This document shows, piece after piece, positions 2,218-58,900 of a stretch of 64,000 bases of DNA. The stretch is taken from assembly GCA_003344405.1 (NCBI GenBank), contig NOWV01000114.1:124001-188000 (forward strand). The letters run 5' to 3'. Source of the DNA: Trichoplax sp. H2 (taxonomy: Eukaryota). The first letter of the stretch is position 1. The number at the start of each line of letters is the position of its first letter. The position numbers and the translations under genes are program-made. The notes under the pieces were generated by a model. It did no database searches, was not told the origin of the DNA, and saw only the letters and a program-made list of their open reading frames with translations.

Positions 2218-3033
2218 ATAAGTTTGTAGTGTTGTCTTTTAATCTTATTCTTAAAATCGGAAAATGTTAAATTTTTAAGGAAATAGGATGTTCAATTCAT
2301 TAATGTATCTCATGTTTCGAATTATATAGGCACTTTGCATTTATACTGAAATTTTTCTGATTTTTTGCTATTGTGTAAATACGCTTGTGCTGATAAGGGT
2401 CATACGAGTATAATATTATTCTAAGAATTTTGTAAAGAATAATGCAACTTATAATCCCTAAATATATATCCGAAAATAGTACCAGTTAAATTGTGAAATT
2501 TTTATCTCATGAATCCTTGATTGAACAATGTACGATAGCTATGGAGATATATACACAGCTTGACTAATTTACAGTTATATTCATGACTTGAATTTGTAGT
2601 AATCTTACGCTATAAACTAGATGCTTTTGTATCTAATGTATAAGGATCCAGAATAGCAATGTCATTTTGGAAACTAGATGGCATCCAAAAAATTACCCTA
2701 TAGCTAAAGTACGAAACTTGGAATTTTCAATCTGTAAATGCTAATGTGGTATATATGTGCGAGATTAGAGTTGATGAATTTCATAAAGAAAATAGATGGT
2801 AAAACTAAGTAATTGGTTAATATTTTAATCGATTTGCGTAGATAAGGATTGGATTGTATGCACAGTAGACTATTATCCATGTTTAGCATAGTGTTCTATA
2901 TACCGTAAACTTATCGTATATGGGGTTAAGTACTGTAAATTACATATGAGTATATAGGAAAATAATCATCATGTGATATAAACATAGGCTAAAGACGCAA
3001 ATATAGCGCAAATATAGTGATTGTAACTAAATC

Positions 3034-3124
3034 GAGTACGGTATAAAGTTACTGAACCTCGTAAAAGATGTTAAATGAGCACATTATCGTAAACCGTCAG
3101 TAAAGCGACGGGAGTTTGCACTAG
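3034..3124 (+). mobile_element. Helitron 3'-terminal fragment (non-autonomous), copy 1
   Basis: aaagttactgaacctc..gttaaatgagcacattatcgtaaa CCGTCAGtAAAGCGACGG gagtttgca CTAG|T: subterminal hairpin followed by CTAG and host T; near-identical at 39304-39359 and 57811-57866. Confidence 0.75.
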
Positions 3125-3370
3125 TTGTATATAAAATCAGTTCATAACATGCGGTACAATTTCGCCAAAAATTTAAATTTTAACTCATCTGTAATACAGT
3201 AACTTGACTAATAAGTGCGAGAATGCTATTAGATTAATAGAACGATAGGTTTAATATTTTCAATCATCAAGTTCGATATTGTAAAGAAGATATATAAATT
3301 CGTAAGTTCTAACAGTAATGATATTAGAAGAGTAACACTAGAGTATGCTTTCTTGATAATGATCAATATT

Positions 3371-5979
3371 TTACAGAACATTTTCAGATAATAAATAAGA
3401 ATTTAGTTCATTCATTTCATTCCCTAATAGTTTCGTAACTCTGATAGCCTCATTGGCTTCTTCACCACCAATTTCCTCTAGAGCGATTAAGGCAGCTTCT
3501 CTTACATGAGATATAGGGTCATTACGCCTTAAAACATACAAAGGTACAGAATCATAATAAGATTTGGCTTTGTAATAATTCGTAGATATCCCAATTCAGA
3601 GTTGCTTAATGTTAATGAAGGTATTTAATATTGAAAACTTTTACAATATTAAATTGCACACGTACCATCGATTTAATATGTTTATGATTGAACTTTCTGC
3701 CTTCATATGTCCCAAAGATAAGCAGGCGCTTTCACGAACCAGCCGATCTTCATCTTGAAGTAACAATATTAGTTTATCGATATGTTTCTTACTTTTAACA
3801 CCTGTTCTTGCTAGTGCTATGGAGGCAATAGCACGAATATTCGGATCTGTATCATCGAGAAGATCTGCTAGCGCGGAAATTACTATTGGTGTTTGATATT
3901 TTCCTAAGATTTTCGGAAATTGCGTTGTTTAGCGTAAAATGAATCTTAAATTTTTTGCTAATGTTTTAAACTGGAATTAGGTAGAAATTAAAATTTTACT
4001 AAGAGTCATCCTGCTGATTCCTGAAAAATGTTTAATACCCATACCTAAATTTTCAACTGCTGCCATGCGAACTGTCGACTCCATATTGAATACTTCATGT
4101 ATTGCTAAGCGACTAGCAACTTGATTGCTTACACAGCTCAAAAATTTATGTGGCTTTGACCAATTTTTACCACAAAAGGCGGTAAACTCTTCTTTACGAA
4201 TGACATCTTTTTTAGTAAAAATATCTTTCCAAATCACTCCTTGAAGCAACCATTCTTGACGATCATCCGGATAATCGCGCTTTAAAACGTCATGGTAATC
4301 GCTCACAAACGCCTTTCTAAATTCAACCCATGTTGTCTCTTGCGCTTGAAAATGGCGATCCCAAAAATTTACTGCCGTGACAAGACTCGACTTAGCTAAA
4401 TTTTACATCAAATGTATTATATTATTTATTTCTTTTCCATATAAGAAATATTATTAATTTAAGAGTAATATAGTAACAATTAATAAAGGTGTAGAAATTA
4501 GTTCACTATCGTAATTTTGTTAATAATTAACATGAAAACATCGATTTCTTATTTTGCTGGAAGCCTACCACTACTCATGGATGAATGTTGTACTGTAGAT
4601 GCAGTTTCTTCTTGAAAATTAAATTGGTCATCTTCGATAAATGATGCTCTTCGATTCTCCAAAATTTCATCATGTGAGCTTATTTTCCTAATTTCTCGTT
4701 TTACGCCCTCTAAAACTGTTGCATATTCCTTATCATAGCGCTCTTTTTTGCAAAAGAATACCCAGTTCAGTTTGGACAAAGTTAACTTTCTGAATAGAAA
4801 GTGGACAAGAATCATGACATAAGTCATTAATTTATTAATTTTCCCGCATTTTAAGTCATGTTACAGTAAATCTTTTACATACGTACAGGGCAAAACCCAT
4901 TTCTTGATTGATTTCTCTGAAATACCGTAAAGATAACGGTACTATAGGTTTGTTCGAGATATAGGCAAGAGAGACTTCATCCACTTTTGCTTTATTCTTA
5001 ATGTATGATATACTGAGTACTACTATTATCACCTGAATTCATTATCAAAACAATGATATGCATCAGTGCAGCGATGTAAGGATATACGTAAATTTATTTT
5101 ATTTACGATCGTGACCAATTTCAATATACTAATTAAAGCTTTTAGATCTTGTATAATTTATTTGCAACATTTTAGAAACTCGTGCTATGATATACTACTG
5201 TAATTATTAGAAAAATATCGTTTTCAAAACGCAGTATACCTATCACTATATGTGAGTGTCTAACATTGTTACCTTTGCGTTTACAATTGCTTTGCCTTTA
5301 TCGGTATTATCTTTTAACTTTTCGCTACCATACCTAAGATGCCAAAATTTAAGGCCATGATTCCGCAAATAAGCTATAAAGTAATAAAATAAAATAAACA
5401 TAATCAGTTCTATTCAAAAGAAAATTAGAATCAGATGTTATAGTAAAAAGAAATCGTCACTTACCAGTAATTGAAGTTACAATTTCTGTATCATCAGGGC
5501 TGTAACTAATGTAGATATCATAATCTACTTCATTTGATTGTTTATAAGCTGTGCTTGTGTCTTCAAATGAATCCAAAGTTATACTAGTATTTATATCAGT
5601 CGCTTGCAGTTGGTTATCTCCGTCCTTCAAATTTTTATGACGAAATTTTAAAATTGGATACTTTTCTTTAGCAGCTATGCTAGTACAGAGTCTACAGACC
5701 TCTTCGCGTGGGTCTTTAGAGGTTATCGCTTGATTCTTTACTTCTGGAAATTCCGTATCTGTTTACAGTATACCACAAGTGGGCATACAATGAATGTCCC
5801 GACATTAGTAATGGTAATCTGTATGAGATTAAAATTTACTGTAAATTTATATTACATATATATATATATATATATATACACTACGTTGCTAATAACAGAT
5901 ATCGTAACCGACCTATTACAGGTGATATACCATTATTTACATTTTTACGGCTAGAGCCACAAGAAGCAATTGATCCCAT
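3371..5979 (-). CDS. TIR-domain + EF-hand-like + HEAT-repeat protein, paralog A (~524 aa, 8 exons, MGxxxS N-terminus)
   Basis: Exons 5979-5913,5758-5465,5373-5273,5032-4887,4789-4569,4395-4045,3903-3666,3527-3371 join in frame (1575 nt). MGSIASCGSSRK..; TIR: YDIYISYSPDD..KAIVNAKVIIVVLS..KVDEVSLAYISNKPIVPL; HEAT: ALADLLDDTDPNIRAIASIAL, LLQDEDRLVRESACLSLG, RNDPISHVREAALIAL. The first exon is less certain than the rest. Confidence 0.85.
5856..5878. repeat. (TA)n microsatellite in intron 1 of TIR paralog A
   Basis: atatatatatatatatatatata. Confidence 0.9.
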
Positions 5980-6659
5980 GTCCTCGACAACAATACTGTA
6001 TCTGTATCGTAATTGCTCACAAGAGATGCAGTATTTGATTAAAAGAAAAGAACTAAAGGATCAACACAATATTACTGTATACAACATTTGAAAGTAGGGC
6101 TGTCGTTCGTTAATAACGTAAGAAGTAACTACCTTAAATTCGTTAACAATACAGTATTAGTATGCAATGCACGGATAGCGGCAACGACTAATTTTTACAA
6201 GAGTATTTGACCAGTATTAAACTACTGTAATTAGTTAAAGTGTACGTAGTCCGGACCGTTACCATGGTACTGTAACTGTATCGGCAAAAAAGATAAAAGA
6301 AGGAGAAAACAGGAAACGTTTGCTGGATCTCATACAAAAGTATTACAGTACAGTATACAGTACTGAACGTTCTGTAGAAGTCCTGACTGAGGTGATTACG
6401 GTGGCCGAGGTGGGCCAAATGCTCTCTTGCACAATCTATAGTATTGTATTCATAGTACTGTCACCTTCTTTAACTGTCAGCTGCCTTCTTTTAACACCTC
6501 GGCCACCGTAGATTTTACATAAAGTATTTCGTAAATTAATTGATTTATCACTCGTTATTTCTTTGCTATCTAATAAAGTATCTAAAGCCGTGCAACACTG
6601 TACAGTGCAATCAATCTATCTATTAGTTATTGTTAGCTATCTAAAGATTATAAAACAAA

Positions 6660-9600
6660 ATGGCAAGTAACGTGCCAGAGCACAAACATCTGGACGTAAT
6701 GATTAGCTATAGCAGGGTTAACCAAAACGTTATGAGAAAATTGAAAGGTGAATAAACAAGTAATTCTTGACTAAAATGATACAGAAAATGACTTACACAT
6801 AACAAAATATAATATTGTAAACTTTAGTTTGCTAATATGTATCTATCTATTTCATATTACTGAAACCTTAATTGTTACAGTAAATTATGAGCTCCCTAAA
6901 CAATATTTTCTTAATACCGTACAAGTACTGTATATTTTAATTGACTGTAAAATACAATAATACCTTAGAAGCAAGAATCCAATAGCTTGGCACAGTTTCA
7001 TTTCATAAATACTGTACATACGTCTTAACATATCTGTTATAGTTAATCATTTTTAATGACTAGTAACAGGCAACTATCAAGAAATGTACGTTGTGCTATT
7101 ATTAAGTAATGGTTAATTAGGATTGATTATAATCATATGTAATTATAATATGTAAACATGTTAATGTACTAGTATGTTTTCTTCTTGCTAATGGACTACA
7201 CAGCAAAATTATATTTATTTTTATCAACTGATCTCAACGCTTTTTATAAATGGCCACGAATCGTATCAGTAAAATTGTTTCGGTTGAAAATTAATTTCAT
7301 GAAACTCGGAAGTTCCATAAATTACAACTACGAATGCTCCAGCTTAAACAGATAATCTAGTCATTATGAAAATAAAACGTACATTTATTGATAAATTTTT
7401 TCTTTTAGCAATGAACTATTACTTAATTATCCAGGACCAAGTTTACGCTATATACGCATACGCATATATTTTTATATATAAAAATATTTCATGAGTCTTT
7501 GTGAACAATTTAGCTTGCTAATCTATTATCACTTCAATTGAAGGTATGTCGTAGCACCAATGCTAGAAGTAATTAAGAAATTATTGTTTTTTCCGATTTA
7601 TTAATATTTGAATTAAACTTATTTTTGCTTACAGACTTTTTGATTGAGAATGGCTTAAAGGTATGGGTAGATGAGATTGGCCTTGAGGCAGGATCAGAAT
7701 TTCTGAACATAATAGGGCAAGCAATTGTTGACGCTAAGGCAAGTCGATGTAAAATCAAATGAAAACATTTTACTAGCAATTTATAGCTGCATCTTAGCAA
7801 TATGTGAGCTAGAAATAAACTTACGTCTCTAAATTACCCATAAAGTCCTGACTCTTCCGTTTATAGATTTCATACTTTCTAAAATATCTACCCTTTACCC
7901 ATACCCTTACTTAATCAAAAAAGTATATTATAATTTTACCCAATCATCACCTACGTATTATAGAAGGAGCTATCTTCTAATCCGTAGCTGGCTTTTGATC
8001 TATACTAGCCCTAATCTGGCAGTGACCTAATTTTATATATCTTCGCTAACGTAAGCTGCTTTCCCTTTAGGCCTTTCTGATTATCTTAAGTAAGAATTCA
8101 GCTACATCGAAGTATTGTAGGGATGAATTGGCATTAGCCTATATTTCTAACAAGCCAATTATTCCCGTAGCTCTCGAAAAGAAAAGTGAGATTTTATCTG
8201 TTCTTGAATTTGGCATGTAAGTTATATATTTTAATATATGTGCTAGTAAATATTTTTTTGTAACTGCACAATGTAACTGTATTTTTCTGCAAATTTGAAA
8301 TGATATAAATTTTTTACAATAGATTTATGTAATTATTCTTTGTTACATACTAAATGATTACGATACATTTGAGTTCGTTAAATGGTTTAATCTTACTGGA
8401 TTGTCATTTCTCACAGGAAACTAACTTTAGCTTCTATGGAATGGATATCTTTAGCTGATGATATGCAATTTGATCAGCAATTAAGCAAAATTATAGCAGC
8501 TGTTAACACATTCATCGGCGATACTGATGTGAGTGAACATAACAATAACTCGGTAAAAAGCCAAGATCGTTTAGTGAATAGACAGATTTCAAAACACAAG
8601 AAGTTATTTCATGACCATGAAGAAAAAGACTTTATCAGAGCTGGTGAAAAATTTATTGAATTTTTAAAAGATTATTATCGTATGGAGGATACAATACCTT
8701 GGACACTTTTTGAACAAAAATTTTATGAAATAAATGGACCAGAATTAGAAAAATTGTGTAGTTTTGACAATGAGGGTTGGTTGCTAGGAGTTTTATATCG
8801 TGAACTAGAGGTGCTTGAAGCAAATGAAAATGTTACTAAACAACAGTTGCTAGCATTTACAGATAATAATATAGATATATTTTGGGAAAACGTAGAAGAA
8901 CAAGCGATACAAAGCTATGCAATGAGAGAAGTATTTAATATGGATTCCTCTGTTAGAATTCCAGCGATTATGAATTTATGTAAGTTGCAATAAACAAAAC
9001 ACAAACAATTCAGTAGTTCGTACGATCAGTAGTAATAAACTCATATCAAAAGTTTGTATTACAATGTAGCTATAGATTGTTTTTCCAAATTGATCAGTTA
9101 GCTTGTCATTTTAGCAAAGATTAAAAGCCCTGCAGTCATGGAGGCATTATCTGATCTGCTAACGGATAAAGATCCTAATATCCGATCAGTCGCTGCCATA
9201 TCACTTGGTCGACTTGGAGTGCAAAACAATCTTAGAATTACAAGAAGATTGATCAATTTACTTAATGACAGTGATAGGCTTGTTCGAGAGGCTGGCTGTC
9301 TAGCTTTGGGACATATGAAAGCTCAACCCGCTGTTCGAAAGCTCGTTAAACTTTGGTAAGAGACTTAGGGTATTAGTACTTCTTTATCTTGCAGTAAGTT
9401 GATATACGACCAATTGTTGATATATCAATCTTATAAGCTATACGTTCAACCGACTTATATGTGATTTCATAACTACAGTAATGACTATAAAGGACCATAT
9501 ACATCTATACAAGCAGAGTTGATTATTTCAAAATATCGCTATCTTAGTAAGCGAGAGAAATTTATTTAGACTGTTCACTTAGGTCGAGACCTAAAAAGTG

Positions 9601-9878
9601 CAGTACTTAATATTTTATTATTATCACACCACAGATTCATGTTCTTAAAATTATTCCTATCTAGAACCTTGCACTTCTTTTTTAAAAATATTCCAACTTT
9701 AAGTTGTATCATTACATTGTATATTTCCAGGCGTAATGATACAATTTCTCATGTTCGTGAAGCAGCTCAATGTGCACTAAAACGCATAGGAGGTGAAGAA
9801 GCTGAGAAGGCCTTACATATTACCAAAGTTTTAACCGAAGAAATAAGAGCATTAACTACTAAAAATAATACCAACTAA
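6660..9878 (+). CDS. TIR-domain + EF-hand-like + HEAT-repeat protein, paralog B (~429 aa, 6 exons)
   Basis: Exons 6660-6747,7635-7738,8071-8216,8417-8979,9115-9355,9731-9878 join in frame (1290 nt). TIR_2-like: LDVMISYSRVN..GLKVWVDEIGLEAGSEFLNIIGQAIVDAKAFLIILSKNSATSKYCRDELALAYISNKPIIPV; HEAT: ALSDLLTDKDPNIRSVAAISLG, LLNDSDRLVREAGCLALG. Confidence 0.9.
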
Positions 9879-10739
9879 GAAGTTACTTAAAATTTTCATT
9901 CCATACTCAGAGCCCACTGTTTTCTTGGAGATTATTCTAAAATTTTATATAATTTTTATGTTACTTATTCTACGTGCTTGGACTATCTATAAACTTATAA
10001 ACTGGGACAACCCTTAGTCAGATAGAGATTGTTATAGCAGTCAAAGAATGGCTCAACAGCACTTAAACTACGCATATAAATCAGAACATTTATCCCAAAC
10101 ATTTATTAGATACCCCGGATTCAAGCCCAATATAGATTTCTATTATTACACGGTGATTATGCTGTTTTATTAAGCCACCTTAGAATGTGTGCATCACATT
10201 GCTAGGGATAACTTATGTTACGCTAAACTATAATAAATTAATCGACTGATTACAAATGTTTGATGTCAAGTATGTGACGCACATTTAATAAACTATCCAG
10301 TAAGCATGAAAACACAGTCATTATATTACTAATTGTAATCAATTCAAGATACAGTAGGTGTTTTTTTAAACCTAGGATAGGCCTAAATTCCTGCAATGCA
10401 GCTGCAGTGAAAGAACCGAAAGTGAAAGTAATTCTTTGAAGCTGTATCTTATTACGGACTGCTAATAAATGAATTAACGAGCACTAGAATGGGGTGCTCA
10501 CTATTCTACGGAATGGTAGGTGGCACATGATAACACAAGTCAACGACTTAAAAAAATAATATGCTGTTTGCGTTTTCTTTTAGATTGCTAGCTTTATAAA
10601 TATAATAGTAAATGAATAAATTTAATATTGCTCTCTTGTAGTCTTGACAAGACACATGGTAAATCTTCAGTTCATTATATGATTTTCTTAAGCAATGGTA
10701 CGCACTGGTGAAACAGCTTTACAGACAGTCCATGGTAAA

Positions 10740-11280
10740 TCAGTACAGTATACGCCGCCTAACGATTACAGAGAGTACAGTACAGTACAGTACTATACAG
10801 TAATTTGTATTCTTGTGGACATACAGTACAGTAATTGCGCTGTACACTGTACAGTCCTGTAGTCAAAGAAGAATCATAGCAGATAGCAAGGACCACTCAA
10901 GTAACAATGTTACACCTTTTCCACCGTCTACCTTCTCAGTACATAGAAGACGGAAGGGAAGGAGAGGAGTAGAAGGTGGAAAAATGGTAAAATTCATTAT
11001 TTGAGTAGTCCCTCCAGATAGCCCTGAGATAGGTATTCCATAATTACAGTACGCGACTGTACTGTAGAATCCACGGTAGCGTACAGTACTTCGCATTTTG
11101 TACTGTACTGTACTGTACTGTACAGTACTGTACTTGACAATACTACAGTACAGTATACTGTACAGTACTGTACAGTACTGTATAATCTATACAGTAATAC
11201 TGTACAGTATACAGTACTGTACTGTACTGTATGGTACTGTACTGTACATTACAGTACAGTAAAGTACAGTACAGTATTTC
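10740..11280. repeat. TACAG/CTGTA degenerate pentamer tract upstream of the GAS2-like gene
   Basis: Dense tacag/tactg/ctgta units, densest at 11100-11280. Confidence 0.85.
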
Positions 11281-11398
11281 TAGTTCTCTTTGGGTGCAAA
11301 TCATCGTGTACTGTATAAAAATTAAATTTAATTTTATATACTATTTAATAAACGATAATTCGCGGTCATGTTATGTTGTTGGGTTTTTAACTGTCAAT

Positions 11399-19734: not shown

Positions 19735-20414
19735 ATACTGTACTGAAGTTACTACATGTACTGTACTGTACACTGAGTGTACAGTAGTGTACGTACTGTA
19801 CTGTACACTGTACAGTACAGTACATGAATTAAGCAACACTGGTAAGAATATAATGCTACAGTACTGTACAGTACTGTACTTGTACTGTATGGTAGCTGTT
19901 AACTAGTCCCTGGTTAAAGATAAAAGGCCCCTCTTTTCCTTTGTGTACAGTACAGTACAGTACAGAATTGTAGTGTGTACTGTACTGTACTATGAAAAGT
20001 ACTGTACTGTACACAGTGTACAGTACGTACGAACAAAAAAATCGCTATCATCTGTGTTACCCGGGTACAGTGTAATGTACTGTACACTTGTACAGTACAT
20101 ACCGTACTGTACTGTAAAGTACAGTACGGTATAAATAAATACCACATACTGTACTGTACAGTACAGTATACAGTACAGTAGTGGTAAATTTAATTTAACC
20201 CCTTAAAGACTGAAAGTGTGCAAAAAGTACTGTACTGTTCGAGCAAAAAATCGCTATCATCTGTGTTGCCCGGTTACTGTGTACAGTACAGCACAGTACT
20301 GTACAGTACTGTACAGTACTTTATAAATACCACATGCACGGTACTACAGTACTGTACTGTACTACGGCGAAGTGATAAATTAAATTTAACCCCCCTTAAA
20401 GACTGACAGTGTGC
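19735..20414. repeat. TACAG/CTGTA tract plus ~200-bp degenerate tandem duplication in the MED19/GALM divergent promoter
   Basis: aaaaaatcgctatcatctgtgtt(a/g)cccgg, taccaca and aatttaacccc..ttaaagactga(a/c)agtgtgc each occur twice (~19996-20221 and ~20222-20414). Confidence 0.85.
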
Positions 20415-27317: not shown

Positions 27318-27700
27318 TACAGTACAGTACAGTACAGTACCGTACAGTACGTACTGTACAGTATGACACTCACTACCGTACAGTACAGTACTGGGCAGCA
27401 GTGTACTGTACAGTACTGTACAGTATGACGACTCGACGAAAACACACTCTATCAAATTACAGTACTGATTTCTGTACCGTACAATACTGTACAGTACAGT
27501 ATACTGTAGTACTGTACACTGTACTGTACAGTATCAGTCTTTGCCGACGTTTGCAGGATTATACTGTATAGTACTGTACTGTACTGTACAGTACTGTAAA
27601 TTGTAATGAAAACGAATAAAGTACTGTACAGTACAGTATCATCAACTTCTGTACTGTAAGAACTATACAGTAACAGTGGAATTACAGTACTGTACTAACG
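27318..27700. repeat. TACAG/CTGTA tract in the DPF/GPANK1 divergent promoter
   Basis: Dense tacagtacag/tactgtactg units. Confidence 0.85.
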
Positions 27701-35312: not shown

Positions 35313-36060
35313 GAGTACTGTACTGTACAGTACGAATCCAAAACAGTATGTACTGTACAGTACAGTGCTGTATTGTACTGTACAGTACTGTACCCTAAAA
35401 AGGTTTTTCTTTTCTATCATACAGTACAGTACAGTACGGTAAAATACCAATGTTAATATTAAGTTCTTTGGATATTTTTTGGGACATATTTCATCCATAT
35501 TTATTTGAGAAAATTACCGGATTTTATATTAAAACGGCAAGAATGAAGTGGATCACACTTTACTGTAGCCGAGAAGCGTAATAGACAGTACAGTACTGTA
35601 CTGTGTGATTAAAAAAATTTTCTTGGACTCTGTATACTGTACAATACAGTACAGTATGAGCTACATTGATAAATTACCTACAGTATTTCAATTTTATAGT
35701 CTATCGTACTGTACAGTACTGTACAGTGTACAGTACAGTACCGTGCAGTCATATTGCGGACTGGAGCTAGGAGCTAGACTTACTGTATGCATGTGAACAT
35801 ACGGTATACAGTACTGTACAATGTACAGTACAGTACACCGTGCAGTGTACAGTACAATACAGTACAGTACACCGTGCAGTGTACAGTACAATACAGTACA
35901 GTACAGTATACTGTATAGAACCCTACTGCACTAGTATTACTTTTAGTAAACAGACTATGCACCGCTATGTCTTACTATTTCACTATTTCTTGTCTATGGT
36001 TCATGCTCATCCCTCATGTACAGTACTGTACCGTACTGTACACTGTACAGTACAGTACTT
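35313..36060. repeat. TACAG/CTGTA tract between divergent MED15 and C2orf69 homolog
   Basis: Dense pentamer units, including an exact tandem duplication of ~34 nt (agtacagtacaccgtgcagtgtacagtacaatac) at ~35827-35905. Confidence 0.85.
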
Positions 36061-39255: not shown

Positions 39256-39359
39256 AATTACTGAACCTCTGACAGGTCTATCAAATGGTAATACTGTACT
39301 ATCTGTTAAATGAGCACATTATCGTAAACCGTCAGCAAAGCGACGGGAGTTTGCACTAG
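39256..39359 (+). mobile_element. Helitron 3'-terminal fragment, copy 2
   Basis: ttactgaacctctgacag..aaatggtaatact..atctgttaaatgagcacattatcgtaaa ccgtcagcaaagcgacgg gagtttgca CTAG|T. Confidence 0.78.
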
Positions 39360-55963: not shown

Positions 55964-58900
55964 CTAAACGCCCCTTGATCCAAAAATTCCGCCAAAAACT
56001 CCCGCAATTACCAAAGCTAAGATGATAATACATACTATAATGATAACTTTTTTCTGGATCGTTAGGAAGTCAAGCATTATGAAAAAGAAATAAGAATGAA
56101 TTTATATTAGTATTTTTACGGCTATGATTAATTGCTACAGTTGAATTTGGATAAATGATACTTATAATCTTCGGTAACACCTAAGCAAAATCAACATACC
56201 CGCCGAGCTTTACTTTGATACTTAGTTGCTTTTTTGGTATCTTCTTTAGCTCTCTCGACATAATCTGTTGTTTGGGCAACATTATATTCAATTCGATCTA
56301 TCATTTCTCCCTTATGAAGAAGTTAATATATTTGATTGAATTACTAACGGTTAATTTGTTCTTCGATATTAAATAAAGGTTTACAAGCAGGAAGGGATGG
56401 AAATCAATGCATTGAAAATATAAGTAATGCCTCTTTTACCTGGACGCTAATTAGTTGTCCCATATCCTGAAATAACTCTGCTAGATCCTAGTTTAATTGA
56501 CAATAGTTAGATTAATTTCCAAGTAAACCCTTTATAAGCTAAAGTGAATAAAATAATTAACCGATAGATTCTTCTCTAATTTCATTATCTCTTTGTGGCG
56601 GGATTCAATTAATGATAAAGTTCTCTTTGCTTCCGCGGAGTCAATCATGAGCTTTTAAATAATTTATGAGATGCATAAGTTTAATAGTATATGGTTTCAT
56701 TCATATGACAAGCTTTTCTATTGATATAATTGCGAAATGGAAGTTCAGAAGCCTATATTGTTACATCATAGAAATGTTTTCATGTCAAGAACTTACGCCT
56801 GATGTAAATATTCGGGGTGCTGGACCACCACTTTCCAACATTTCGTCGATGTCTTCTTCACTAACTTTTTGCTGAGCTATTAGATCAAATTATTGCATTT
56901 ACAATTGTTGATTGCAACAGATTATAAAGATTACTTAAGGTACGCAGGCTGGCTTATAATCTTTTAATGTACATTATAACGTATTGCATATTTTAAGGAT
57001 TCAGTAACGTACTTATCTTTAGTTGAGTTTCTAGTCGCGCTTTACATTTTTCCTTGTATTCTATTTGTTGCATATTATATTCGCTCATAACGTCGATGTA
57101 GTTTTTAGATAGCGCAGTACACTATATAGTCCAGGGATGTAAAATTAGCCAAGACAGTTTATGCTGATATTATATGGTCTACTATTTCATTAAGTTTGTG
57201 GTATTAGTATTGTTGGTACAGGTTTTAGATTAATAAAGTACATAAGTAAAACTAAAGCGAATTTTTATTTACAGATAGACTCTTATTGTCAGTCAGTCAG
57301 TTAATCAATTCATGATATCTAATAACACTACAGATAATAAGGAATCTTGGCAAACATGTAATTTACTCATGCTACAATAACGAGAGGATAAGTGATATAA
57401 AAAGTCACGTGCTAATGTACTGCATTAAAGCGCTGTTATAATTATAAGATTGTAGAAGATTAATTGATATACGAGCATGGCACTTATTTATCCAAGTACT
57501 ACTTTCACATATTCGACTTTCATTTGATAATGAATTTGTAATCGAAATAGTTAAGTTGTTTTCAAATCTTCAGCACTAACTAACATATCAACACCCAAAG
57601 AGATATTTCTCTAGAACATTTCATAAAATAACTGATTATTATCTAAAGGGCACGTATCGAAAACATTAATCTTAAATGCTCGAAGTACGGAGTACACGGT
57701 AAAACGTTACTGAACCTCCGATACACGATATAAAGTTACTGAACCTCTTACACGGTATAAAATTACTGAACCTCTGACAGTTCTACAGTACGACAAATGG
57801 TAATACTATCTGTTAAATGAGCACATTATCGTAAACCGTCAGCAAAGCGACGGGAGTTTGCACTAGTATTTATAATTCAAATCAAAAATGAATACAAGAT
57901 TGTAATGTAACTAGTATTGTGATTGTAGACTATTAGTCATGTTTAGTATAATGTACGGTAGATATTTATCCTAAGAGATATTTGGTAGCTATAACTATAG
58001 ACTGTAGTGGTATAGACTCTATGCTAGAGTATAGATGACTATATGTGGTAAGGTGATTATTATTAAGTTACTAATAAGGCTATAGGTAAAAATAGAACTG
58101 TAAATCATATATTAGGATATGGTTAATTCATTGTAGTTTGGCTGGTGTGAATAATGTCTACGTAANNNNNNNNNNNNNNNNNNNNTGGCACTTATTTATC
58201 CAAGTACTACTTTCACATATTCGACTTTCATTTGATAATGAATTTGTAATCGAAATAGTTAAGTTGTTTTCAAATCTTCAGCACTAACTAACATATCAAC
58301 ACCCAAAGAGATATTTCTCTAGAACATTTCATAAAATAACTGATTATTATCTAAAGGGCACGTATCGAAAACATTAATCTTAAATACTCGAAGTACAGAG
58401 TACACGGTAAAAAGTTACTGAACTTCTGATACACGATATAAAGTTACTGAACCTCTGACAGGTCTAAGAGATATTTGGTAGCTATAACTATAGACTGTAG
58501 TGGTATAGACTCTATGCTAGAGTATAGATGACTATATGTGGTAAGGTGATTATTATTAAGTTACTAATAAGGCTATAGGTAAAAATAGAACTGTAAATCA
58601 TATATTAGGATATGGTTAATTCATTGTAGTTTGGCTGGTGTGAATAATGTCTACGTAAGTACTGTAATCGTATCCATATTGGATTAATGATGGTCCGCAG
58701 TAGAATTGTCTTTCTAAGAATAATTTAACTATGTGTAATATAAGGTAAAAGGTTGCCATACGGATTGTAGCTGGGAATGCTACGAAAAGTATACAAGCAT
58801 GCAACTTTATATAATATAATGAATTAAAATGCAGTACTCTAATAGCTTGAATTGTTAAAAGCTGAGTACAAATCAAGAATATTCTGATGTATTAGCTAAG

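What the first reader, a model, noticed from the sequence alone, without database searches (positions are those of the whole stretch)
3371..9878. Head-to-head pair of paralogous TIR-HEAT genes: candidate two-component innate-immune/NADase module
Seen: two genes with ATGs 680 bp apart on opposite strands share the architecture TIR - helical linker - HEAT repeats and matching intron positions (both have a 146-nt TIR exon). Their sequences are strongly diverged, implying an old, retained inverted duplication. Paralog B has a canonical TIR_2-type motif SKYCRDELALA (Glu at 8125-8127). Paralog A keeps the Glu (KVDEV, 4978-4976) but lacks the Cys and has a remodelled WVD/BB-loop region. Established: the equivalent Glu is catalytic in NAD+-cleaving TIRs (SARM1, plant TNLs, bacterial TIRs); SARM1 uses ARM repeats for autoinhibition; plant sensor/executor NLR pairs such as RRS1/RPS4 are head-to-head. 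Inference: a co-regulated heteromeric sensor/executor pair with a domain order unlike SARM1, TLRs or MyD88. The ORF track shows only fragments and none of the TIR exons.
Basis: partly seen in the sequence, partly recalled or inferred. Interest (0 to 1): 0.85.

Follow-up and report, generated by a model that had tools for sequence, protein, structure and literature searches.

The report
Paired TIR-HEAT genes of Trichoplax
Two neighbouring, oppositely oriented placozoan genes encode the two old branches of an uncharacterised animal protein family that joins a SARM1-like TIR domain to HEAT repeats; both are real, expressed and already annotated, but whether they cut NAD+ or act as a pair is untested.

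Summary
The window carries two head-to-head genes whose exon models translate exactly to Trichoplax sp. H2 TrispH2_006850 (A, 499 aa) and TrispH2_006851 (B, 429 aa). A and B are 36% identical (E 3e-77), and all five B introns have a counterpart in A.

Both have a TIR domain, an EF-hand-like helical linker and PBS-type HEAT repeats. They belong to an unnamed family found from a choanoflagellate and a sponge to amphioxus, with no vertebrate among the records I had named. B is the canonical class: it keeps the BB loop, and its Glu83 aligns with the motif Glu of Roq1, Cat1 and ADR2. A is a divergent class with bilaterian members. It keeps the Glu, has lost the BB loop and aromatic residue, and starts with a myristoylation-type MGxxxS.

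The duplication probably predates the placozoan-bilaterian split, although two other row sets did not reject a local duplication. NADase activity and an A:B heteromer remain inference; the complex job was not folded.

The parts
3371..5979 (-). Gene A (TrispH2_006850; class 2). CDS in 9 exons: 5979-5913, 5758-5700, 5624-5465, 5373-5273, 5032-4887, 4789-4569, 4395-4045, 3903-3666, 3527-3371. 499 aa.
   Evidence: The exon model translates exactly to P0088. Joints are listed for 7 of 8 introns in runs X5, X6 and X10. Pfam TIR_2 7.3e-13 and HEAT_2 4.2e-26.
6660..9878 (+). Gene B (TrispH2_006851; class 1, canonical). CDS in 6 exons: 6660-6747, 7635-7738, 8071-8216, 8417-8979, 9115-9355, 9731-9878. 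429 aa.
   Evidence: The exon model translates exactly to P0089. Joints are listed for 5 of 5 introns. Pfam TIR_2 5.7e-22 and HEAT_2 1.5e-18.
7739..8070 (+). GC-AG intron of B (donor GCAAGT). The public T. adhaerens model TRIADDRAFT_59119 (P0001, 403 aa) lacks 26 TIR residues that the window's model keeps, at the exon that ends at this intron.
   Evidence: Intron ends. The joint is seen in X5, X6 and X10.
5625..5699 (-). It removes 25 codons.
   Evidence: The joint is seen in X5, X6 and X10. It agrees with P0088.
8125..8127 (+). Codon of B Glu83, in the motif S-K-Y-C-R-D-E-L.
   Evidence: It aligns with the Glu of the W-C-x-[DE]-E-L motif of Roq1, Cat1 and ADR2. Glu occupies this column in 29 of 29 class-1 proteins.
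4976..4978 (-). Codon of A Glu148, in K-V-D-E-V.
   Evidence: It sits in the same family-alignment column as B Glu83, next to the invariant Asp. Glu occupies this column in 13 of 13 class-2 proteins.
5965..5979 (-). Start of A: M-G-S-I-A-S-C, a myristoylation-type (MGxxxS) start with a nearby Cys.
   Evidence: Sequence. MG starts occur in 19 of 29 class-1 proteins, 3 of 12 class-2 proteins that begin with M, and 0 of 5 in the bivalve Q clade. Lipidation itself is inferred.
5980..6659 (.). The 680-bp divergent intergenic region, holding both 5' UTRs and the presumed shared promoter. A's transcript contig reaches 6188 and B's contigs begin at 6468/6469, which leaves about 280 bp between them.
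   Evidence: Pieces of records 8, 11 and 12. Contig ends are not mapped transcription starts.
6397..6510 (.). Perfect 16-nt inverted repeat (arms 6397-6412 and 6495-6510, 82 nt apart) at the edge of the promoter gap. Role unknown.
   Evidence: 2 matches in the window against 0 expected.

Best explanation
SHOWN. The locus holds two transcribed, correctly spliced genes. They encode the two classes of an old family built as TIR, EF-hand-like helical linker, then PBS-type HEAT repeats. The family has members in a choanoflagellate, a sponge, the placozoan and many bilaterian invertebrates.

B is the canonical class 1. It has a conserved BB loop (V-D-x-x-G-L-x-A-G-x-D-F-L), the S-K-Y-C-x-D-E-L motif, and a TIR whose nearest solved relatives are NAD+-cleaving TIRs. 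A is class 2. It keeps the Glu, has lost the BB loop and the aromatic residue, carries its own conserved K-L-N-W-x-F-F signature, and retains the family's usual MGxxxS start, which B has lost.

INFERRED, in falling order of confidence.
(1) The A/B duplication predates the placozoan-bilaterian split, and the two genes have stayed adjacent in Trichoplax.
(2) B is a NAD+-consuming TIR enzyme. Its C-terminal EF-like and HEAT module holds it in check or senses a ligand or partner, as the ARM domain does in SARM1, but with the domain order reversed.
(3) A is a membrane-tethered, probably catalytically weak or inactive paralog that scaffolds or regulates class-1 TIR assembly at a membrane.
(4) The shared divergent promoter keeps the two in step.

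Steps 2 to 4 are untested.
For: Gene models and expression.

Paralogy: (36% identity, E 3e-77).

Folds: the B model has pLDDT 84.9 and pTM 0.74. The A model has pLDDT 79.1 and pTM 0.50.

B's TIR in structure: nearest solved chains are C. elegans TIR-1 (Z 17.5, rmsd 2.2, 135 aligned), Hydra TRR-2 (Z 17.1) and SARM1 (Z 17.1, 26% identity). SARM1, SPARTA, RPP1 and Roq1 are among the Foldseek hits.

B's TIR in sequence: 14 of the 18 PDB hits at E<=1 are plant resistance-protein or RPPT-type TIRs, SARM1/TIR-1, AbTir-type bacterial TIRs or Cat1. B Glu83 falls on the motif Glu of Roq1, Cat1 and ADR2.

Class conservation: Glu in 29/29 class-1 and 13/13 class-2 proteins. BB-loop residues are conserved in 22 to 28 of 29 class-1 proteins and in none of class 2.

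Class membership: the careful tree of 45 rows, rooted on the choanoflagellate, puts A in class 2 (93/97) and B in class 1 (96/84). The AU test rejects A+B as a clade at p 0.0005. A also shares class-2-only residues (Asn in 13/13 and Phe in 12/13 of the K-L-N-W-x-F-F stretch).

Linkage elsewhere: the class-1 and class-2 genes of Lingula lie on one 212,095-bp contig with gene ids two apart. Those of amphioxus lie on one chromosome with protein accessions two apart.

HEAT is the best-kept part: A and B are 50% identical there, and 13 of the 21 invariant family columns lie from Ser290 onward.
Against: No assay exists for any family member.

The Glu is also kept in class 2, which lacks the BB loop, so its conservation may be structural rather than catalytic. 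A whole bivalve clade has Gln there (5 of 5), so the family can do without it.

The structural Z scores for SARM1/TIR-1 are within about 1 of adaptor TIRs (Hydra TRR-2 17.1, MyD88 16.4), so the fold does not separate enzyme from adaptor.

A's TIR alignments to solved structures stop before the motif.

The AU test did not reject a Trichoplax-specific duplication on two other row sets (p 0.08, 33 rows; p 0.44, 58 rows with long branches).

The class-1 and class-2 genes are on different contigs in Octopus and Saccostrea cucullata, so adjacency is not required.

Orientation and distance outside Trichoplax could not be read. Similar contig depths in bulk RNA do not show co-expression in the same cells.
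Confidence: 0.45

Rival explanations
1. Both proteins are non-enzymatic TIR adaptors or regulators. They assemble with other TIR proteins (the TLR-like, IL-1R-like or TIR-only proteins of Trichoplax) by TIR-TIR contacts, and the HEAT module recruits downstream factors. This is the role suggested in print for the invertebrate 'ecTIR-DC' proteins.
For: PMC6321704 (passages read) reports 16 TIR proteins in Trichoplax sp. H2. Eight of them are ecTIR-DC, for which an adaptor or regulator role is hypothesised. The fold matches to MyD88 (Z 16.4), MAL (15.8) and TIRAP (15.3) are nearly as good as to SARM1. A myristoylated start in A and in 19 of 29 class-1 proteins recalls the lipid-anchored adaptor TRAM (recalled). 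A bivalve clade replaces the Glu by Gln in 5 of 5 members yet stays otherwise conserved.
Against: The sequence-level nearest solved relatives of B are mostly enzyme-type TIRs, and the plant-type S-x-[WY]-C-x-x-E-L motif is intact. The Glu is invariant in 42 of 42 class-1 and class-2 proteins, which is more than a pure scaffold would seem to need.
Confidence: 0.3
2. The two genes work independently. The head-to-head arrangement is only the trace of an old inverted tandem duplication, preserved because this genome rearranges slowly or because the shared promoter is hard to split. It is not preserved because the proteins need each other.
For: Class-1 and class-2 genes sit on different contigs in Octopus and Saccostrea cucullata. 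No class-2 protein turned up among the echinoderm, Capitella or Ciona records that I looked at, whereas class 1 did, so class 1 may work alone. No interaction evidence exists.
Against: The pair is adjacent in Trichoplax and apparently near-adjacent in Lingula and amphioxus. In Trichoplax the features are complementary: A has the anchor and B has the BB loop. Both are assembled from the same RNA runs.
Confidence: 0.45
3. The duplication is specific to placozoans, and A only resembles the bilaterian divergent class by parallel decay of the BB loop and long-branch attraction.
For: The AU test did not reject A+B as a clade on two row sets (p 0.08; p 0.44). A has a long branch (1.04 to 2.06 changes per column). 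A and B share all five of B's intron positions.
Against: The careful tree places A inside class 2 at 93/97 and B inside class 1 at 96/84. The AU test gives p 0.0005 on that set. A shares class-2-only residues outside the decayed loop. A's best hits in the all-protein search are the class-2 proteins of amphioxus (42% identity, E 2e-88) and Tubulanus, which score above the 36% identity A shares with B.
Confidence: 0.15

Closest known systems
SARM1 / C. elegans TIR-1 (ARM-SAM-SAM-TIR NAD+ hydrolase)
   Same: They are among the top structural matches for B's TIR (Z 17.5 and 17.1, 24-26% identity). In both, a helical-repeat domain sits in the same chain as the TIR. The Glu sits at the position that is catalytic in this enzyme class (position recalled; the alignment to related NADase TIRs is).
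   Different: The domain order is reversed, with the TIR first. There are no SAM domains, so no SAM-ring octamer. The repeats are PBS-type HEAT rather than ARM. An EF-hand-like linker lies between the domains. SARM1 is not the same family: the Pfam architecture differs.
Plant TIR-NLR TIR domains (Roq1, RPP1, ADR2) and the head-to-head RRS1/RPS4 pair
   Same: B shares the S-x-[WY]-C-x-[DE]-E-L motif and aligns to Roq1 and ADR2 across beta-A to alpha-C. RPS4/RRS1 TIR is a structural match (Z 15.4). The divergent gene orientation resembles paired NLR genes (recalled).
   Different: There is no NB-ARC, LRR or integrated decoy domain in either protein. Both partners here have the same architecture. 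No evidence of heterodimerisation exists.
Invertebrate 'ecTIR-DC' proteins (Gerdol et al. 2017, not held; cited in PMC6321704, passages read)
   Same: These are cytosolic TIR proteins that are conserved in invertebrates, reported as absent from vertebrates, and of unknown function. Eight of the 16 Trichoplax sp. H2 TIR proteins are assigned to them.
   Different: I could not see which numbered ecTIR-DC family, if any, these two genes were assigned to. The defining paper is not held and the supplement of PMC6321704 is closed. The class-1/class-2 split and the gene adjacency were not mentioned in the passages I read.
TRAM (TICAM2), the N-myristoylated TIR adaptor of vertebrates (recalled)
   Same: An MGxxxS-type start precedes a disordered stretch and then a TIR domain, in A and in most class-1 proteins.
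   Different: TRAM has no HEAT or EF-like module and no NADase-type motif. TRAM's TIR is a weaker structural match (Z 11.8).
Prokaryotic TIR_2 proteins (AbTir, TcpB, 7uxr TIR protein, CRISPR-associated Cat1)
   Same: These are the best sequence matches in the PDB for both TIRs. For B they are Cat1 at E 0.0012 and 7uxr at 0.0022. For A they are 7uxr at 0.00049 and TcpB at 0.024. Pfam TIR_2 is the best model, rather than the animal TIR model.
   Different: Those are bacterial or archaeal effectors with other partner domains. The proteins here are intron-rich holozoan genes with a fixed EF-like and HEAT tail.

Membership tests
TIR domain (Pfam TIR_2, PF13676) | Profile match above the curated cut-off (28 bits) | tested here: met
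   B scores 78.9 bits, E 5.7e-22, over profile positions 1-121 of 122. A scores 49.5 bits, E 7.3e-13. All 44 of 44 aligned family members match.
TIR domain (Pfam TIR_2, PF13676) | Flavodoxin-like alpha/beta TIR fold | tested here: met
   B model residues 7-145 match TIR-1 at Z 17.5 (rmsd 2.2) and SARM1 TIR at Z 17.1. The A model matches SARM1 TIR at TMt 0.72 and Hydra TRR-2 at 0.81. pLDDT is 89-96 over most of both TIRs, dipping at the BB-loop region.
NAD+-cleaving TIR enzymes (SARM1, plant TIR, bacterial TIR NADases) | Glu at the catalytic position of helix alpha-C | tested here: met
   This holds for B. Glu83 aligns with the second Glu of W-C-L-E-E-L in Roq1 and with the Glu of W-C-W-D-E-L in Cat1 and W-C-L-D-E-L in ADR2. 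That this is the catalytic residue is recalled. For A, the Glu shares the family-alignment column, but no alignment to a solved TIR reaches it.
NAD+-cleaving TIR enzymes (SARM1, plant TIR, bacterial TIR NADases) | Conserved Gly-bearing BB loop used for the head-to-tail TIR contact that opens the active site (role recalled) | tested here: inconclusive
   B and class 1 keep a fixed loop (G45 in 22/29, G49 in 28/29, F52 in 28/29). A and class 2 have no conserved residue there and carry deletions. The loop's function was not tested.
NAD+-cleaving TIR enzymes (SARM1, plant TIR, bacterial TIR NADases) | Measured NAD+ hydrolase or cyclase activity | not testable with these tools
No paper on any member was found.
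SARM1 orthologs | ARM - SAM - SAM - TIR architecture with a C-terminal TIR | tested here: not met
   The TIR is N-terminal. No SAM domain appears in any Pfam scan.
HEAT repeat proteins (Pfam HEAT_2 PF13646, PBS-lyase type) | Profile match above cut-off and an alpha-solenoid fold | tested here: met
   HEAT_2 scores 67.2 bits for B and 91.5 bits for A, against a cut-off of 27.7. Foldseek finds alphaRep HEAT-like proteins at TMt 0.7-0.9, rmsd 1.3-2.4.
EF-hand pair (linker domain) | Helix-loop-helix pair with short paired strands, plus a profile match | tested here: inconclusive
   DSSP of both models shows two helix / 3-residue-strand / helix units (B 183-260, A 262-326). Pfam Cbl_N2 (EF-hand-like) matches 16 of 44 members at E<=0.1, best 1.4e-4, and EF-hand_1 matches 1 of 44. 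The one score seen, 17.7 bits for P0002, is under the 22-bit cut-off. No D-x-D-x-D-G calcium loop appears in the family consensus. The domain was not folded or searched alone.
Paired NLR-type sensor/executor genes (RRS1/RPS4 kind) | Head-to-head gene pair | tested here: met
   The start codons are at 5979 (-) and 6660 (+). The genes are adjacent locus tags in both Trichoplax annotations.
Paired NLR-type sensor/executor genes (RRS1/RPS4 kind) | NB-ARC/STAND NTPase with LRR, and an integrated decoy in one partner | tested here: not met
   No such domains appear in the Pfam scans of A and B.
Paired NLR-type sensor/executor genes (RRS1/RPS4 kind) | Physical heteromer of the two products | not testable with these tools
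ecTIR-DC families (Gerdol et al. 2017) | Assignment to a numbered family by that paper's criteria | not testable with these tools
   The paper is not held. The supplement of PMC6321704 with the Trichoplax assignments is closed.
N-myristoylated proteins | Start M-G-{not charged/aromatic}-x-x-[STAGCN] | tested here: met
   A starts M-G-S-I-A-S-C and passes the motif test, as do 17 of 29 class-1 proteins. B does not (M-A-S-N). Actual lipidation was not tested.

The most novel reading that the evidence does not exclude
Class-1 and class-2 TIR-HEAT proteins form an obligate two-subunit NAD+-consuming signalling enzyme that arose before sponges, placozoans and bilaterians split. On this reading the class-2 subunit, which is lipid-anchored and has lost its BB loop, nucleates or gates the class-1 subunit at a membrane. 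The conserved HEAT/EF-like tails act as the ligand or partner sensor. That would make it a second, SARM1-independent TIR NADase system of animals, lost in vertebrates, and kept as a divergently transcribed gene pair in Trichoplax and perhaps amphioxus and Lingula.
Probability: 0.12. Interest if true: 0.8.

Novelty: new variant of a known kind. Interest (0 to 1): 0.5.

Why it matters
SARM1 is the one well-studied animal TIR domain that destroys NAD+ (recalled). Here is a second TIR family with members from a choanoflagellate to amphioxus. It keeps the plant- and bacteria-type catalytic motif, has its own helical-repeat tail, and has never been assayed as far as my searches show.

If class 1 is an enzyme, it would extend NAD+-based immune or death signalling to the base of the animal tree, in a lineage with only 16 TIR proteins and no canonical TLR (PMC6321704, passages read).

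The class-1/class-2 split gives a natural experiment. One partner has the loop and the other the anchor. A bivalve clade carries a natural Glu-to-Gln change. Trichoplax has just one gene of each class side by side, which makes it the simplest system in which to test the pair.

On the practical side, the T. adhaerens reference protein B3S4K5 (TRIADDRAFT_59119) lacks 26 TIR residues that are present in the H2 protein and in the window's model, at the exon that ends at a GC-AG intron. It should not be used for TIR analyses.

Tried and rejected
1. A:B complex prediction (A residues 74-499 with B, each as a family alignment): the job came back NOT FOLDED. I have no result either way and did not try again.

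2. Whole-genome tools: no genome is held for this window. Other TIR genes of the organism and the neighbourhoods in other animals could not be read.

3. Linker fold: the ESM Atlas look-up of B residues 120-300 gave only scores under 0.8 and TM under 0.35. The Foldseek and VIA lists were filled by the TIR and HEAT domains. I make no claim that its fold is new.

4. Per-exon Pfam scans gave only weak TIR hits for the 34-48 aa exon pieces. I replaced them with scans of the stored full-length proteins.

5. First trees joined A to other long branches, and a mixture-model careful search did not finish in time. AU results differ by row set (p 0.08, 0.44 and 0.0005).
   - The 45-row set left out 13 rows of the 58-row set: P0008, P0044, P0048, P0077, P0082, P0084, P0109, P0114, P0120, P0124, P0128, P0206 and P0230.
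   - These were long branches, fragments, near-duplicates or rows of odd composition.

6. Literature: the searches 'TIR domain + HEAT repeat + Trichoplax' (0 papers), 'TIR-DC + HEAT' (2 papers, neither on this family), a four-term NADase search (7 papers, none on this family by title and abstract), the gene and UniProt ids (0), 'TIR-HEAT/TIR_2/HEAT_2/ecTIR-DC' (1, unrelated) and 'TIR domain + HEAT repeat + amphioxus' (1, unrelated) found no characterisation. Subscription papers and supplements were not searchable.

7. Earlier findings of this scan: nothing for this genome or sequence. The word search returned only unrelated prokaryote and phage items.

8. Rfam scan of 2800-10400 at E<=0.1: no match.

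9. Run X8 showed no joints and covers introns, so it was not used as expression evidence.

Full report
WHAT IS THERE

The window is AT-rich (GC 0.29-0.37) eukaryotic DNA with short introns. No whole genome is held for it.

Reading 3000-10400 and placing splice sites gave two divergent genes. Gene B (+ strand) has six exons from 6660 to 9878. Gene A (- strand) runs from 5979 to 3371. The start codons are separated by 680 bases.

The final exon models translate letter for letter to two database proteins of Trichoplax sp. H2: TrispH2_006851 (P0089, 429 aa) for B and TrispH2_006850 (P0088, 499 aa) for A. The T. adhaerens H1 counterparts are TRIADDRAFT_59119 and TRIADDRAFT_59118.

So the pair is already annotated as adjacent hypothetical 'TIR domain-containing' proteins in two genomes. 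The H1 model of B (P0001, 403 aa) lacks 26 TIR residues that the window's model and the H2 protein keep. The missing stretch ends at a GC-AG intron (7739-8070, donor GCAAGT).

EXPRESSION AND SPLICING

Contigs of four public runs were laid on 3000-10300. Three runs from three studies carry spliced contigs. X10 is on record as RNA. X5 and X6 are guessed to be RNA.

All five B introns are bridged, including the GC-AG one. A's intron 5374-5464 is not in the joint table, because the tool skipped a repeat at 5374-5403. The fourth run, X8, has no joints and covers introns, so I did not use it.

A's transcript contig reaches 6188 and B's contigs begin at 6468/6469. About 280 bp therefore remain for a shared divergent promoter. 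Contig ends are not mapped transcription starts.

PARALOGY

A and B align over the whole of B at 36% identity (E 3e-77). By domain the identity is 36% in the TIR, 11% in the long helix plus disordered stretch, 22% in the linker domain and 50% in the HEAT part.

Every B intron has a counterpart in A at the matching position and phase, including the 146-nt exon that carries the motif. No third copy lies in the window.

DOMAINS AND FOLDS

- Pfam, B: TIR_2 E 5.7e-22, HEAT_2 1.5e-18.
- Pfam, A: TIR_2 7.3e-13, HEAT_2 4.2e-26.
- AlphaFold models built with a 44-sequence family alignment are confident: B has pLDDT 84.9 and pTM 0.74; A has pLDDT 79.1 and pTM 0.50, with a disordered N-terminus (1-73) and loop (230-258).
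- B residues 7-145 are a TIR fold. Matches are C. elegans TIR-1 at Z 17.5, Hydra TRR-2 at 17.1, SARM1 at 17.1 and MyD88 at 16.4.
- The C-terminal 130-140 residues match PBS-type HEAT 'alphaRep' proteins.
- Between them lies a long helix, a disordered stretch, and a domain with two helix / short-strand / helix units. These look like an EF-hand pair. Pfam Cbl_N2 (EF-hand-like) matches 16 of 44 members at E<=0.1, and the one score seen is under the cut-off. No calcium-loop consensus is visible. This domain was not searched on its own.

THE CATALYTIC QUESTION

With B's first 145 residues as query, 14 of the 18 PDB hits at E<=1 are plant resistance-protein or RPPT-type TIRs, SARM1/TIR-1, AbTir-type bacterial TIRs or Cat1. 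The alignments place B's S-K-Y-C-R-D-E-L on S-T-W-C-L-E-E-L of Roq1, S-D-W-C-W-D-E-L of Cat1 and S-S-W-C-L-D-E-L of ADR2. Glu83 therefore sits at the position I recall as the catalytic Glu of these enzymes.

A's TIR finds bacterial TIRs (7uxr, TcpB, AbTir), but the alignments end before the motif. In the family alignment A's Glu148 shares B's column, next to an Asp that is invariant in 44 of 44 sequences.

THE FAMILY

A search with a mollusc-like member found 87 proteins at E<=1e-5 among 8000 scored candidates. Of these, 77 carry TIR_2 in the precomputed Pfam column. All named ones are 'uncharacterized' or 'TIR domain-containing', and one is called 'tirA-like'. They come from bivalves, gastropods, a chiton, annelids, a nemertean, a brachiopod and all echinoderm classes.

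An all-against-all search with A found 86 proteins at E<=1e-30, many of them long HEAT-only proteins. I inspected 31 of the 150 listed and had 20 named. That added amphioxus, Octopus, Lottia, Ciona, a hemichordate, the sponge Geodia barretti and the choanoflagellate Salpingoeca urceolata. No vertebrate, arthropod, nematode or cnidarian name appeared among those I looked up, which is not proof of absence.

TWO CLASSES (COUNTS)

| Feature | Class 1 (29 proteins, incl. B) | Class 2 (13 proteins, incl. A) |
|---|---|---|
| BB-loop region | Fixed: V41 27, D42 28, G45 22, L46 25, A48 24, G49 28, F52 28, L53 26 of 29 | No conserved residue, with deletions |
| Motif residues | S77 29, K78 27, Y79 25, C80 29, D82 29, E83 29 of 29 | E 13/13, D 12/13; aromatic residue lost |
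| Own signature | none noted | K-L-N-W-x-F-F: Asn 13/13, Phe 12/13, which A shares |

A bivalve sub-clade of class 1 has Gln in place of the Glu (5 of 5).

Starts of the MG type, mostly fitting the myristoylation pattern and often followed by basic residues or Cys, occur as follows:
- 19 of 29 class-1 proteins
- 3 of the 12 class-2 proteins that begin with M (A, amphioxus, Tubulanus)
- 0 of 5 in the Gln clade
- 8 of the 10 outlying proteins that begin with M, including the choanoflagellate and the sponge

In Trichoplax the features are split between the two genes. A keeps the anchor-type start and B keeps the loop and motif.

AGE OF THE DUPLICATION

A careful ML tree of 45 rows rooted on the choanoflagellate puts A inside class 2 (ultrafast bootstrap 93, SH-aLRT 97), with the sponge protein as its sister (90/86). 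It puts B inside class 1 (96/84). On that set the AU test rejects A+B as a clade (lnL difference 55.3, p 0.0005).

Two other sets analysed in quick mode did not reject it: 33 rows gave p 0.08, and 58 rows including several long branches gave p 0.44.

I therefore favour an old duplication at about 0.8, and do not regard it as settled.

LINKAGE ELSEWHERE

I could not read other animal genomes. The only evidence is contig lengths and identifier order, which is indirect.

Same contig or chromosome:
- Lingula: class 2 (LOC106162413) and class 1 (LOC106162415) lie on one 212,095-bp contig.
- Amphioxus: class 2 (CAH1232799) and class 1 (CAH1232801) lie on one chromosome, with accessions two apart.
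- Tubulanus and Ostrea: both classes share a chromosome.

Different contigs:
- Octopus vulgaris and Saccostrea cucullata have the two classes on different contigs.

MECHANISM

I commit to the following. B is probably (about 0.55) a Glu-dependent NAD+-consuming TIR whose EF-like and HEAT tail regulates it. A is probably a membrane-tethered, loop-less paralog that regulates or scaffolds TIR assembly. That A and B act together as a heteromer I put at about 0.25-0.3. All of this is inference from motif, fold and class conservation.

The main rival is that both are non-enzymatic adaptors. This is what the literature hypothesises for ecTIR-DC proteins (PMC6321704, passages read). It is consistent with the near-equal fold scores to MyD88 and MAL, and with the Gln clade.

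The A:B complex job was not folded.

WHAT IS KNOWN

Seven literature searches found no study of this architecture or of these genes. The only context found was the Trichoplax TIR inventory and the ecTIR-DC concept. The defining paper is not held, and the supplement that would show the assignments is closed.

VERDICT

The family is widespread, catalogued and uncharacterised. The sensor/executor heteromer is an open hypothesis, not a finding.

- the class-1/class-2 split
- the placement of A and B in different old classes
- the split of anchor and loop between the two Trichoplax genes
- the hint of retained adjacency in two other phyla
- the flawed H1 reference model

Noticed in passing
window 5994-6362, 10744-11315, 19736-20361, 27318-27694, 35316-35600 and elsewhere: The heptamer TACTGTA occurs 310 times in the window against 19 expected. 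It forms dense period-5 clusters on both strands in several intergenic stretches. Eight copies lie in the A/B intergenic region. Its nature (satellite, promoter element or transposon relic) is unknown.
   Followed up: partly
window 3070-3125 (core 3088-3119); also 39323-39354 and 57830-57861: A short element of about 56 nt lies downstream of gene A. It recurs three times in the window with at most 1 mismatch in 32 nt. In all four runs it has very high summed depth and many different flanks (loose ends at 3068-3071 and 3125-3126), so it is present in many transcripts or loci. There is no Rfam match.
   Followed up: partly
window 6397-6412 and 6495-6510: A perfect 16-nt GC-rich inverted repeat with an 82-nt spacer lies at the edge of the promoter gap, overlapping the start of B's transcript contigs. 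It is unique in the window.
   Followed up: partly
window 7661-7738 (part of B exon 2): The T. adhaerens reference protein TRIADDRAFT_59119 / UniProt B3S4K5 (403 aa) lacks 26 residues covering beta-B, the BB loop and part of alpha-B. The H2 protein and the window's model keep them, and the exon ends at the GC-AG intron bridged.
   Followed up: yes
window about 130-2220, + strand: The neighbouring gene, convergent with A, has open exon frames that look like a radical-SAM tRNA wybutosine synthesis protein (TYW1-like: C-x-x-x-C-x-x-C region and a conserved C-terminal part). I judged this by eye only and ran no family search.
   Followed up: no
proteins P0002-P0030 and P0045 (bivalves; not in the window): A bivalve-specific sub-clade of the canonical class has replaced the motif Glu by Gln (C-Q-D-Q-L) and lost the MG start, while staying well conserved. 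It sits on the same 686,623-bp contig as the Glu-bearing copy in Saccostrea cucullata. This is a second, independent 'active-looking plus inactive-looking' pairing.
   Followed up: partly
proteins P0102, P0163, P0213, P0230, P0206 (heterobranch gastropods; not in the window): This is a long-N-terminus offshoot of the family (525-774 aa, mostly with M-G-N-C starts). The Glu is often lost and the A-L-A-Y motif is altered.
   Followed up: no
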